Positions 61,801 through 64,000 of a DNA stretch of 64,000 nt are shown here, piece by piece. A program made the position numbers. The first letter of the stretch is position 1. Every line of letters starts with the position of its first letter. The stretch is from Escherichia coli (lineage in GTDB: Bacteria; Pseudomonadota; Gammaproteobacteria; Enterobacterales; Enterobacteriaceae), in the NCBI RefSeq assembly GCF_013122565.1, contig NZ_CP053258.1. One strand, written 5' to 3'.

Positions 61801-64000
61801 TAAGCATTACCGAAGTTATTGCCATCGCGGTTTTCGATACTGCCGCGCGCATTTATCTTCAGTTTTTTGCTGGCCACGATCAGCGCTGTGTTGTTATTGA
61901 CGCCAGACATCGACTCCATCGTGATGTTCTGCCCCATCATGAAGCCGCCGTGGTTATCCACGGAGTTGGCTAACAGGGAGATATCACCCTCTTCAGAGCT
62001 GATCACGCCAATATTATTGGTCAGGCTGCCGCCAACGGCGACTTCAATACCCTGCTTACCGCTGATCCCCCCGGTATCGTTACGCAGAGAGCTTCCCTTG
62101 ATAATCACTTTGCTGTTGGACAGAATTTTGCCCGCATAGTCGTCGATCGTGCTGTAACTTGACAGGGAGACGTTGCCATTAGACGCAATCTGTCCGCCAT
62201 TGTTATTGATGTTGTTCGCACCAATTTCTACGCCGGTATCTGCAATAATGCCCAGAGAGTCAGAACTGCCGGTATCGGCGGTTTTGGTTGAACCATTATT
62301 TACGCTACCTGCCGCACCAATAACGATATGCCCGGTGGACGAACGGATCAGACCTTTGTTGTTATCCACATTACCGTTACTGATAATGGCGATATCGCCA
62401 GTGGTCTGGATATCACCGCTGTTGTTATTCAACGCGCCTGATTCAAGCCCCACATAACCGCCGCGAATCTGACCATTGCTGTTGTTGAGCGTTCCGGTTT
62501 TCAGCGCCACGAGCCCCGCTTCAATCCCGACAGAACTCCCTTTACCAGAGTTAATCAGCGTGGCGTTATTGGTATCAACCGCCAGCATACCTGCTGCGGC
62601 GAGCTTGCCGTTGGTGTTATCAATCGTGCCACTGTTAACGTAGATATCGCCCATCGTAGAGATGTTACCCGCACGGGTATTCACGATAGTATTCTTGTTG
62701 GTATTAAGCGAGATAGTGCCTACAGATGTCACCGTACCGGTGGTGTTATCCAGAGTACCATTTGTTGTCAGGTTGATCGTGCTTGCAGACTGAATCTGGG
62801 CGTTACTGTTTAACAGGTTACCTTTGGAATCGATGCTGACACCATTAACCCCCCCAGCAATAACGCCGAGGTTGCGAACCCCCACACCTTTCTCGGTGCT
62901 GACCAGACTGATTTTGTTCGCATACATTCCGCCCAGTTTGGCAACATCTACGCTGTAACCGTTACGGGACCCCGTGGCGGATACGCTACCGGTCACCTGG
63001 CCTGCGGCATTAACATAGTTATTGCCAGCAACAACGTTCAGCTCATCGGCAGACACTTTGCCGTTAACTACCACGTTACGGGACAGAATTTCTGTCGGGC
63101 TGGCGTTATCCAGTTTACCGAGCGTAATGGTACCGCCGTTCACGGAGTAACCGGCCAGCTTGTCATCCTGGATATCCGGCGTCCCGGTGGTTAAGGTAAG
63201 TTTACCTGTATTGATTGAACCGCCACCGTTTACAGTAATACCATTCGGGTTGGCAATAATCAGATCCGCTTTATCCCCTGCAACTTCCATCATCCCATTA
63301 ATGGTTGAAGGATTTTTGGAAGTAACCTCATTCAGGATCACCTTCGCCGACCCGGAGGTCAGATTACTGTTTCCCTGAATATTTCCGGCAAGTGAAGTAC
63401 TGGATTCATTAGCGCTGTTATTGAAAACGACACCATTTTTATCAACGTTTAGGTTATCCCAGATATTATGAGATAAACCGCTACCGTTAGGTTTGTTGAT
63501 GTCAACGACTGGCACACCATTGGCGTTATATACCGTTCCATTTTTTATGACTAATCCCGCCGCTTGAGAAGCTACAGGAAAAGACAACATCATAAGTATA
63601 GCAATAGGGGTTAATGCTTTACCCACCGTTGCTTCCTTACTTAAATTTATCATCGCCACTAACGTTTTCCTTATTGATGCTATTCATTTTGGACATGCAG
63701 ATCACTTTTGATGACTCACGGAATATCAGCAAAAATGATTGCGGCAAATCCTATCACCTGGCGCAATAAAAAATCACGAAAAATAAGCTGAAATAAGGAT
63801 TCAAAAAAACAACTAAGAGTTATTGTTTTTTCATCGAACGGCGAAGAACCTAACTTACTAAAACACAATAATTTAAAAGTCCCCCATCCTTGCTCCTTGG
63901 GTGATAAAAAATCCAATTTAGAGGATGTCTGAAATGATATGTAGTTTTCTGTACGACATCATTTCAGACATCCGAATAAAACAACAAAGTTGGTGAGTTA

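What the first reader, a model, noticed from the sequence alone, without database searches (positions are those of the whole stretch)
63923..63973. Perfect 16-bp inverted repeat upstream of tpsA
Seen in sequence: GGATGTCTGAAATGAT and its exact reverse complement separated by 19 bp, about 260 bp upstream of the tpsA start in otherwise AT-rich promoter DNA. Inference: this is a candidate operator for a dimeric regulator or a structured leader element.
Basis: seen in the sequence. Interest (0 to 1): 0.35.

Follow-up and report, generated by a model that had tools for sequence, protein, structure and literature searches.

The report
Conserved hairpin upstream of otpA
The inverted repeat is real, single-copy and conserved at one fixed spot upstream of the OtpA two-partner-secretion gene of an E. 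coli genomic island, so it is probably a small local control hairpin of unknown role rather than a chance palindrome or a mobile repeat.

Summary
GGATGTCTGAAATGAT and its exact reverse complement lie at 63923-63938 and 63958-63973, 19 nt apart. They sit 264 bp upstream of the GTG start of a 1270-aa TpsA, which is OtpA of the O157 OI-47-type island.

The repeat is not a dispersed family. It occurs once per genome, in 380 of 5426 complete E. coli genomes, always at this locus, and nowhere else that I searched.

The perfect 16-bp form is a minority allele, found in 25 genomes. O157:H7 and most other genomes carry 15/16, and in the three one-sided alleles the mismatch is a G·U only on the tpsA-sense RNA.

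Two outer pairs differ by compensatory double changes between E. coli alleles. A sister island with about 80% nucleotide identity in coding regions keeps the inner arms (20 of 22 nt) and the 19-nt spacing. It lost the outer pairs but gained a new inner stem.

My best reading, at about 0.4 confidence, is a structure-selected stem-loop acting on tpsA-sense RNA in the distal otpA control region. The main rival, at about 0.3, is a palindromic operator, possibly for the neighbouring divergent LuxR-type regulator.

No transcript data exist to decide between them. Interest is modest.

The parts
63923..63973 (-). Whole stem-loop element (51 nt). As tpsA-sense RNA it folds into 18 contiguous pairs, a 1-nt bulge, 3 more pairs and an 8-nt loop.
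   Evidence: -28.9 kcal/mol, z -6.5; RNAalifold gives the same structure. The strand assignment is an inference from the G·U pattern.
63923..63938 (.). Left arm GGATGTCTGAAATGAT.
   Evidence: The outer 5 nt vary between alleles: GGATG, GGACG, GGATA, GAATA, AAATA.
63939..63957 (.). 19-nt spacer ATGTAGTTTTCTGTACGAC. It contains an inner stem GTA (63941-63943) / TAC (63952-63954) around an 8-nt apical loop.
   Evidence: The spacer length is invariant in all alleles and in L026. The inner pair A:T becomes G:C in L026.
63958..63973 (.). Right arm ATCATTTCAGACATCC.
63928..63938 (.). Conserved core of the left arm, TCTGAAATGAT. Invariant in all sampled E. coli alleles and identical in the L026-type island.
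63958..63968 (.). Conserved core of the right arm, ATCATTTCAGA. L026 has ATCATTTCATA.
63748..63777 (-). The only promoter-like motif conserved in E. coli alleles A and E and in L026. It has an extended -10, TGnTAGGAT (63748-63756), and a weak -35, GTGATT (63772-63777). It lies in the best-conserved upstream block (63740-63795). If this motif is used, the repeat is centred near -205.
   Evidence: my own approximate PWM. This is a prediction only.
59847..63659 (-). tpsA (OtpA-type exoprotein, 1270 aa).
   Evidence: otpAB = ECs1282-1283 (bioRxiv 10.1101/2020.04.13.038984).
58139..59758 (-). tpsB (OtpB-type ShlB/FhaC transporter, 539 aa).
63974..64000 (.). Start of the distal conserved flank. It continues about 40 bp beyond the window end, to L001 6440; beyond that point conservation with L026 collapses.

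Best explanation
The repeat is a locus-specific stem-loop kept for its ability to fold. It is read on the tpsA-sense (window minus) strand and sits at the distal end of the roughly 380-bp conserved otpA upstream region.

Proposed mechanism. RNA made across it in the tpsA direction folds into a hairpin of about 21 bp. That hairpin acts in cis on the transcript. The most likely role is a weak terminator or insulator that stops upstream transcription from running into the otpA promoter region. Alternatively, if a distal promoter is used, it acts as a 5'-proximal leader hairpin that sets mRNA stability or is cut by RNase III.

Shown here: the element exists, is single-copy, is conserved in place and spacing, and evolves in a way that preserves pairing.

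Inferred: that the selected molecule is RNA, that it is the tpsA-sense strand, and what the hairpin does.
For: (1) Pairing is preserved through change. Between E. coli alleles A and E, two outer pairs changed on both sides (G:C to A:U). Between E. coli and L026, one inner pair changed A:U to G:C. RNAalifold independently returns the same 19-pair structure.

(2) Stem length is kept by different registers. Alleles A and E both form 21 pairs although three adjacent spacer bases differ. L026 lost the outer 5 pairs but has a new 5-bp inner stem, GUGUG/CACAC. It still folds with a z-score of about -3.7.

(3) The apical 8 nt are free to vary while the loop size is kept.

(4) Strand asymmetry. The three one-sided changes among E. 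coli alleles (B = O157, C = O145:H28 and others, F) are G·U on the tpsA-sense RNA and C·A or A·C on the other strand. Cells paired are 96.2% on the minus strand against 93.2% on the plus strand. Allele C is the natural G·U intermediate between alleles A and E.

(5) Flank composition. The 3' flank is U-rich only on the tpsA-sense strand. In L026 a canonical terminator-like hairpin with UUUAUUUUAU lies immediately 5' of the element on that same strand.

(6) Geometry. A 51-nt palindrome with a 19-nt self-complementary spacer is typical of hairpin elements, not of dimer operators (established knowledge).

(7) Position. The element lies inside the tpsA-proximal zone, which retains about 0.6 identity with L026, against 0.375 for the roughly 700 bp beyond it.
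Against: No transcript data. Nothing on this intergenic region turned up in the EHEC sRNA, Hfq or RNase E datasets I could search.

No promoter-like motif upstream of the hairpin is conserved across alleles. The only conserved one is about 200 bp downstream, so the hairpin may never be part of otpA mRNA.

It is not a canonical intrinsic terminator. The loop is too long, the stem is AU-rich and the U-run is 3-10 nt away from the stem; the scan found none.

The inner arms are conserved in sequence (20/22) rather than covarying, which fits protein recognition at least as well.

The strand argument rests on three events (p about 0.125).

Allele D carries an A·A (U·U) mismatch and persists in 10 genomes, so the outer stem is dispensable.

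Compensatory-looking double changes in quasi-palindromes can arise in a single step by template switching during replication (established knowledge), without any selection.
Confidence: 0.4

Rival explanations
1. The repeat is a DNA operator or upstream activating site. Two inverted half-sites, TGAAATGAT, held exactly 19 bp apart, are bound by an island-encoded regulator that controls otpA and possibly co-ordinates it with the divergent fimbrial operon. Candidate regulators are the neighbouring 207-aa divergent LuxR/RcsB-type protein and the ToxR-like GrvA.
For: The inner arms are conserved in sequence, 20/22 against a local background of about 0.62. By hand from the numbers, that gives p of about 0.003. 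The spacer length is invariant while the outer arms and loop drift.

The location is upstream of the only conserved promoter-like motif. In L026 the element ends 5 bp before a strong promoter-like -35, which centres it near -60.

The divergent 207-aa gene belongs to a family whose profile matches the C-terminal HTH of RcsB (E 0.003), GerE, VraR and EvgA. Family members head chaperone-usher operons. Its putative recognition segment DVKYISHYKIS.FNK is invariant although the protein is only about 55% identical between island types.
Against: Known LuxR/NarL-type dimers use half-sites 2-4 bp apart; here the core centres are 28 bp apart (established knowledge).

An operator does not explain the self-complementary spacer, the register-shifting compensation or the strand-specific G·U pattern.

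No other copy of the half-site lies in the island's other conserved upstream blocks.

The HTH assignment is weak: E 0.003 at best, nothing in Pfam or NCBIfam for the protein itself, and an AlphaFold2 pLDDT of 38.

There is no binding evidence at all.
Confidence: 0.3
2. The repeat is a functionless quasi-palindrome. A chance or relic inverted repeat is kept near-perfect by replication template switching between its arms and simply rides along with the island.
For: The element as a whole is not better conserved than its flanks: 0.57 against 0.63 identity with L026, and 0.86 against 0.92 between E. coli alleles.

Position 5 of the stem shows four states, including a persistent mismatch.

Most genomes do not have a perfect repeat.

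Template switching is a known source of concerted double changes in E. coli quasi-palindromes (established knowledge).
Against: Template switching preserves complementarity, not ancestral sequence. Yet both inner arms and the exact spacer length survive at a divergence where neighbouring intergenic DNA is 40-60% identical.

L026 replaced lost outer pairs with new inner pairs.

There are 38 contiguous or arm-paired positions with no change among E. coli alleles that differ by about 9% overall.
Confidence: 0.15
3. The hairpin is the 3' end of an unannotated small RNA transcribed in the tpsA direction from the conserved block about 50-60 bp upstream of the hairpin. That block lies just beyond the window end.
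For: The roughly 65 nt 5' of the hairpin keep about 0.61 identity with L026. An E. coli promoter-like pair, TTGTTA-16-TAAATT, sits there. U-rich tracts follow the hairpin on this strand.
Against: The promoter-like pair is not conserved in L026. The U-tract is not adjacent to the stem. There is no Rfam match. No sRNA is reported at ECs1281-1282 in the Hfq-CRAC or RNase E-CLASH supplements. The 11-nt match to the 5' coding region of the 207-aa gene is not conserved.
Confidence: 0.08
4. The repeat is a mobile-element or recombination relic: MITE or IS ends, a REP/ERIC-type repeat, a recombinase site, or one end of an invertible fimbrial-type switch.
For: The island is mosaic and carries IS1 and IS200 copies and an integrase. 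Longer, imperfect IRs flank parts of the intergenic region; for example, 20-nt arms at 90% identity lie 684 bp apart.
Against: There is one copy per genome in 380 genomes and none elsewhere. There is no target-site duplication (read). None of the 380 assemblies shows the intergenic segment inverted or split. A 19-bp spacer does not fit tyrosine-recombinase core sites (established knowledge). The position is conserved in a sister island with about 80% nucleotide identity in coding regions.
Confidence: 0.03

Closest known systems
Intrinsic (Rho-independent) terminators used as upstream insulators, and tandem terminators
   Same: A stable hairpin on the sense strand with U-rich sequence 3' of it. 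In the L026 island it directly follows a canonical terminator-like hairpin on the same strand.
   Different: The stem is AU-rich. There is a 19-nt spacer, or an 8-nt loop after an inner stem and bulge. The U-run starts 3-10 nt after the stem. The terminator scan did not call it. No gene lies upstream on that strand to terminate.
Long leader hairpins that control mRNA fate (RNase III sites in the rnc and pnp leaders, 5' stabiliser stem-loops such as the ompA 5' UTR)
   Same: A near-perfect RNA helix of about 21 bp upstream of a coding region. Pairing is maintained by compensatory change.
   Different: It is not shown to be transcribed as part of otpA mRNA, and the conserved promoter-like motif lies downstream of it. 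No processing data exist.
Palindromic operators of LuxR/NarL/FixJ-type regulators, for example the inverted BvgA heptads upstream of fhaB (another TpsA gene), RcsB boxes and EvgA boxes
   Same: Inverted half-sites upstream of an adhesin-type TPS gene, with a candidate LuxR-type regulator encoded next door. The half-site sequence and spacing are conserved.
   Different: The half-sites are 19 bp apart instead of 2-4 bp. The spacer is itself self-complementary. No binding has been shown and there is no match to those consensus sequences (comparison from memory only).
Dispersed enterobacterial palindromes (REP/BIME, ERIC/IRU, MITEs)
   Same: A short intergenic palindrome able to form a hairpin.
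   Different: It is single-copy and locus-specific, with no family members anywhere searched.

Membership tests
Dispersed repeat family (REP/BIME, ERIC, MITE) | Many copies per genome at unrelated loci | tested here: not met
   One place per genome in 380 genomes. No other copy in the window at up to 3 mismatches apart from a chance-level hit. The covariance model finds only this site. The species-genome scan returns only unrelated chance palindromes. The metagenome scan returns unrelated palindromes plus three copies of this same locus.
Dispersed repeat family (REP/BIME, ERIC, MITE) | Target-site duplication flanking terminal inverted repeats (for MITEs) | tested here: not met
   The flanks ...AATTTAGA | GAATAAAA... 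share no direct repeat.
Any curated RNA family (Rfam 15) | Score at or above the family gathering threshold | tested here: not met
   Best hit is a generic hairpin match to mir-3047, 25.9 bits against a threshold of 53.
Rho-independent terminator | G+C-rich stem, loop of 3-8 nt, U-tract starting within about 2 nt of the stem | tested here: not met
   No terminator-like site was called in the intergenic region. The stem is AU-rich (the model hit is 33% GC). The tail is UCUAAAUUGGAUUUUUU. A hand-computed TransTermHP-style tail score of about -2.8 is marginal.
Structured cis-regulatory RNA | Base pairs maintained by compensatory substitutions across homologues | tested here: met
   3 of 19 pairs changed on both sides. 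96.2% of cells are paired, and 0 of 500 shuffles reach the observed covariation score. RNAalifold predicts the same structure. The sample is small (7 distinct sequences), and template switching is an alternative cause.
Structured cis-regulatory RNA | The element is transcribed, on the proposed strand | not testable with these tools
   No transcript or TSS data for ECs1281-1282 in the supplements searched. Promoter prediction is inconclusive.
Palindromic operator of a dimeric transcription factor | Two inverted half-sites conserved in sequence at a fixed distance | tested here: met
   TCTGAAATGAT / ATCATTTCAGA are invariant in E. coli and 20/22 identical in L026, and the spacer is always 19 nt.
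Palindromic operator of a dimeric transcription factor | Half-site spacing compatible with one dimer (typically 0-8 bp between half-sites) | tested here: not met
   19 bp lie between the arms, and the core centres are 28 bp apart.
Palindromic operator of a dimeric transcription factor | Demonstrated protein binding | not testable with these tools
   Only a candidate regulator was identified, on weak homology.
Invertible promoter switch (fimS-like) | Segment found in both orientations, flanked by IRs, with a dedicated recombinase | tested here: not met
   All 380 genomes align to the 1392-bp region as one collinear piece. No recombinase gene lies in the locus.
CRP site (TGTGA-N6-TCACA) | Match to both pentamers | tested here: not met
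   The E. coli spacer TGTAG-N6-GTACG matches 5/10. The L026 spacer TGTGA-N6-ACACA matches 9/10. It is not conserved, so it is probably a by-product of the L026 inner stem (consensus from memory).

The most novel reading that the evidence does not exclude
The hairpin core TGAAATGAT-N19-ATCATTTCA could be the recognition element of a previously undescribed control circuit that couples the OtpA two-partner-secretion system to the divergent chaperone-usher fimbriae. In one version it is the DNA target of the orphan, highly divergent RcsB/EvgA-like 207-aa regulator. In the other it is a new class of cis-acting RNA element specific to this island.
Probability: 0.15. Interest if true: 0.45.

Novelty: new member of a known kind. 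Interest (0 to 1): 0.25.

Why it matters
OtpA is an experimentally confirmed secreted TPS protein of E. coli O157:H7. Its function is listed as unknown (PMC5422565), and I found no description of its regulation in the literature I could search. The OI-47 island also carries the virulence regulator GrvA.

A conserved, mutable cis-element in the shared control region gives a concrete handle for asking two questions: when otpAB is expressed, and whether it is co-ordinated with the neighbouring fimbriae. That could be tested with arm-break and arm-swap mutants or with a pull-down bait.

Beyond that locus the finding has little general reach. It is one more uncharacterised regulatory hairpin in horizontally acquired, AT-rich DNA.

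Tried and rejected
(1) Dispersed repeat or mobile element. Rejected by copy number in the window, 5426 E. coli genomes, species genomes, metagenomes, plasmids and phages, and by a covariance-model search.

(2) Invertible switch. None of the 380 assemblies is inverted.

(3) Small ORFs across the hairpin (23 aa on the plus strand, 17 aa on the minus strand). Start, length and sequence are not conserved in alleles E or L026, and there is no Shine-Dalgarno. The 66-aa minus-strand ORF next to it is broken by an indel in allele E.

(4) Antisense pairing of an arm with the 5' coding region of the 207-aa gene (11-nt match, 1 mismatch). It is not conserved in L026 or L030, and the match is at chance level.

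(5) Rfam families. Nothing found.

(6) Orthologous upstream regions of closer TpsA homologues in other enterobacteria (L032, L033). The upstream DNA is unrelated, so they are uninformative. L031 and L034 start only 50 bp upstream of the gene.

(7) Structure prediction of the 207-aa protein. pLDDT was 38, so the model is unusable and no fold search was run.

(8) Literature. The Choi et al. 2007 and 2009 OtpA papers are not held. One search was wasted on the term 'loc6'. Esr41 is in OI-43, not here. The only OtpA-locus entry in the RNase E CLASH data is a single hybrid inside the coding region.

(9) By-eye comparison with the Fur, MetJ, IHF, ArgR, TyrR, FNR, LexA and NsrR consensus sequences, from memory. 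No convincing match; these were not formally tested.

(10) Promoter prediction. The tool finds no enrichment. My own PWM scan gives one weak motif conserved across alleles and several that are allele-specific.
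Full report
OBSERVATION

The inverted repeat (IR) is exactly as described. 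GGATGTCTGAAATGAT lies at 63923-63938 and its perfect reverse complement at 63958-63973, separated by 19 nt.

The gene downstream on the minus strand is a 1270-aa ORF, 59847..63659, with a GTG start. It has a TPS secretion domain (E 3e-41) and haemagglutinin repeats, and is followed by a ShlB/FhaC-type tpsB. The repeat's near edge is 264 bp upstream of the start codon.

The region is AT-rich: 34% GC against 46.5% for the window.

A perfect 16-bp short-range IR is unusual. It is the second longest in the window, and only 1 of 60 Markov simulations of the window reached 16 bp. Both strands fold far better than shuffles, z -6.5 and -7.7.

WHERE IT IS

The window is E. coli. The last 6.4 kb match strain PapRG-04-4 at 99.9%, and the last 401 bp are identical to it.

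The locus is the OI-47-type island of O157:H7. This island holds otpAB (ECs1282-1283), the fimbrial locus 'loc6', GrvA, and a fatty-acid/polyketide-like gene set (PMC8565820, PMC10877973, bioRxiv 10.1101/2020.04.13.038984). OtpA's function is listed as unknown (PMC5422565).

The window ends 27 bp after the repeat. In full genomes the repeat sits in a 1392-bp divergent intergenic region. On the other side lies a 207-aa 'hypothetical protein' that heads a chaperone-usher fimbrial operon.

NOT A DISPERSED REPEAT

- The 71-bp and 1392-bp queries each find one place per genome in 380 of 5426 complete E. coli genomes, always at this locus.
- The window has no other copy.
- A covariance model of the hairpin finds nothing else in the window or the related loci searched, 164 kb in all.
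- A core-pattern scan of 100,044 species genomes gives 13 unrelated palindromes and no enterobacterium.
Only three of these were copies of this same locus, carrying alleles A, D and E.
- The two plasmid hits are a 212-kb EDL933 record and a 4.9-Mb record, which look like chromosomal sequence filed as plasmid. Phages give nothing.
- Rfam gives nothing above threshold.
- None of the 380 assemblies shows the intergenic segment inverted.

ALLELES

Seven distinct versions were recovered.

| Allele | Left / right arm (outer part) | State | Where found |
|---|---|---|---|
| A | GGATG / CATCC | perfect | this window; exact in 25 genomes |
| B | GGACG / CATCC | one mismatch | O157:H7 and O55:H7 |
| C | GGATA / CATCC | one mismatch | O145:H28, PapRG-06-5, F2_81, ESDR8 |
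| D | GGATA / AATCC | A·A mismatch | 10 genomes |
| E | GAATA / TATTC | perfect, two pairs changed on both sides relative to A | see below |
| F | AAATA / TATTC | one mismatch | see below |
| G | see next section | outer pairs lost, new inner stem | L026-type island |

The B query counts 314 genomes, but this figure includes allele C because BLAST trims two adjacent terminal mismatches. Alleles E and F together account for 27 genomes, that is 380 minus 353.

The 'perfect 16-bp' state is therefore a minority allele. The inner 11 bp of each arm and 16 of the 19 spacer bases never vary within E. coli, although alleles A and E differ by about 9% across the intergenic region.

A DIVERGED SISTER ISLAND

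The 207-aa protein has a 56%-identical homologue on contigs from gut metagenomes and sequencing runs, L026-L029. These contigs carry the whole island in the same gene order. TpsA is 89% identical in amino acids, the usher 89%, and coding DNA about 80%. This island type is absent from complete E. coli genomes.

Its intergenic region is largely unalignable with E. coli. Yet at the same position it has ATCTGAAATGAT - 19 nt - ATCATTTCATAT. The inner arms are 20/22 identical to E. coli. The surrounding tpsA-proximal DNA is about 0.62 identical, which by hand gives a binomial p of about 0.003, and the next 700 bp are 0.375 identical.

The outer five pairs are gone. The spacer sequence is mostly different, but it now contains a 5-bp inner stem, GTGTG/CACAC, where E. 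coli has GTA/TAC. One of those pairs is a clean A:T to G:C compensation.

STRUCTURE STATISTICS

On the tpsA-sense strand:
- 19 pairs are defined, and 96.2% of cells form a pair.
- Three pairs show changes on both sides.
- None of 500 shuffles reaches the observed covariation score, and slid-register controls collapse to 26-46% paired.
- RNAalifold independently predicts the same structure.

On the opposite strand, 93.2% of cells pair and the one-sided changes become C·A or A·C mismatches.

The three one-sided changes inside E. coli (alleles B, C, F) are all G·U on the tpsA-sense strand. Allele C is the expected wobble intermediate between A and E. This is suggestive only, at p of about 0.125.

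Alleles A and E both reach 21 pairs by different registers, despite a three-base substitution next to the right arm.

WHERE IT SITS RELATIVE TO PROMOTERS

Promoter-like sites are not enriched.

My own approximate PWM scan finds one motif at the same alignment position in alleles A, E and L026. It is an extended -10, TGnTAGGAT, with a weak -35, at window 63748-63777 on the minus strand. It lies inside the best-conserved upstream block. If this motif is used, the hairpin is centred near -205 and is not part of otpA mRNA.

E. coli alone has a weak candidate promoter about 25 nt upstream of the hairpin. L026 alone has a strong candidate that starts 5 bp downstream of the hairpin. L026 also has a canonical terminator-like hairpin (8-bp stem plus UUUAUUUUAU) immediately upstream of it, on the tpsA-sense strand. 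U-rich tracts follow the hairpin only on that strand.

INTERPRETATION

The data show a real, old, locus-specific element. Its foldability, inner-arm sequence and spacing are all maintained.

I favour, at about 0.4, a stem-loop selected at the level of tpsA-sense RNA. It would act as an insulating weak terminator in front of the otpA promoter region, or as a leader hairpin if a distal promoter is used. The reasons are:
- pairing is rebuilt in different ways in different lineages;
- the apical loop is free to vary;
- the spacer is self-complementary;
- the wobble pattern is strand-specific;
- the geometry is that of hairpin elements rather than dimer operators.

The main rival, at about 0.3, is a DNA operator. 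Its support is as follows.
- The half-site sequence and spacing are conserved.
- A candidate binder is encoded next door. The 207-aa protein has no Pfam, NCBIfam or PDB hit on its own, and its AlphaFold2 model is poor.
- A full-library profile search finds a small family.
- The expanded profile of that family aligns its C-terminus with the LuxR/FixJ-type HTH of RcsB (E 0.003), GerE, VraR, ComA and EvgA, at the position expected for a regulator of about 210 aa.
- Remote family members hit Pfam GerE.
- Family members head fimbrial operons or sit beside EAL and ToxR-like genes.
- The putative recognition helix is invariant between island types, while the rest of the protein has diverged to 55% identity.

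A functionless quasi-palindrome maintained by template switching gets about 0.15. It explains the concerted double changes and the tolerated mismatch allele D. It does not explain the retention of ancestral inner-arm sequence and exact spacing across the sister island.

An sRNA 3' end (about 0.08) and a mobile-element or recombination relic (about 0.03) are minor.

COMPARISON WITH WHAT IS KNOWN

The element works most like a terminator, insulator or leader hairpin. However, it fails the defining features of an intrinsic terminator and matches no Rfam family.

It resembles LuxR/NarL-type palindromic operators in having conserved inverted half-sites upstream of a TPS adhesin gene, as with BvgA at fhaB (from memory). 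It fails on spacing.

It is not a REP, ERIC or MITE element, and not a fimS-type switch.

VERDICT

The element is a new, uncharacterised member of a familiar kind: a short cis-regulatory palindrome or hairpin. It is of local interest for the regulation of otpAB and the adjacent fimbriae. Interest is 0.25.

Noticed in passing
window 39580-39621: A perfect 20-bp inverted repeat with a 2-nt spacer (CTCCCGGCTACACTGGCTAC gt GTAGCCAGTGTAGCCGGGAG), the longest short-range palindrome in the window. It starts 19 bp after the stop of a 616-aa ORF (37711-39561, +) and lies about 1.5 kb from a tyrosine-integrase gene (41160-42251, -). It is G+C-rich and has no T-run after it.
   Followed up: partly
window 43007-43075, next to 42542-43000: 13-bp perfect IR arms 43 nt apart (CCCCTTTTGATTT ... 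AAATCAAAAGGGG), directly beside an IS200C-type tnpA. This is probably the IS200 end hairpin.
   Followed up: no
L001 7453-8076 (just beyond the window end; divergent from tpsA): The 207-aa 'hypothetical protein' heading the fimbrial operon is a very divergent LuxR/FixJ-type regulator. The family profile hits the RcsB HTH at E 0.003, and GerE, EvgA and VraR at the same relative position. It evolves fast (55% aa identity between island types, against 82-89% for its neighbours) but keeps an invariant putative recognition helix. Homologues head other chaperone-usher operons or sit beside an EAL protein and a ToxR-like regulator.
   Followed up: partly
window 63748-63775 and 63886-63913: A 28-nt direct repeat at 75% identity. 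The first copy coincides with the conserved promoter-like block (TAGGAT -10 region). The second lies 10 bp from the hairpin's left arm, so it looks like a partial duplication of the promoter region next to the hairpin.
   Followed up: no
L026 7023-7043 (minus strand) and L026 6972-7014: In the sister island a canonical terminator-like hairpin (GAGAAAC...GTTTCTC + TTTATTTTAT) directly precedes the conserved IR on the tpsA-sense strand. The IR spacer there reads TGTGA-N6-ACACA, which is CRP-like at 9/10 and lies about 60 bp upstream of a strong promoter-like site. Neither feature is present in E. coli.
   Followed up: partly
window 59847-63659 (tpsA), internal: otpA contains an internal duplication of about 0.8 kb. 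Two modules are about 67% identical at the DNA level and are visible in the protein as two repeated blocks...NTALI(V/A)A(S/N)KKL(K/V)INA(R/G)G...RDGNNF....
   Followed up: no
window 1-41071 versus 41072-64000: Only the last 23 kb of the window align with the otherwise best-matching strain PapRG-04-4. The first 41 kb are different DNA, and the best match for 38.5-41.5 kb is 98.7% in other strains. The tpsA island therefore abuts a strain-variable mosaic region carrying an integrase and IS elements.
   Followed up: partly
L003 1764-2461 (strain XJ34): In strain XJ34 otpA is interrupted by IS1, yet the hairpin (allele E) is intact and perfect.
   Followed up: no
window ~43300-58100 (downstream of tpsB) and L026, L032, L033: The genes after tpsB form an aryl-polyene-type lipid biosynthesis set: acpS, SDR/KR, FabA/ApeI-like, ACP, ketosynthases, acyltransferase, an outer membrane lipoprotein-sorting (TP_0789-like) gene and an FtsX-type permease. 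This reading comes from my own knowledge of such clusters. In other enterobacteria, truncated otpA-like genes sit between wza-wzb-wzc and the same gene set.
   Followed up: no
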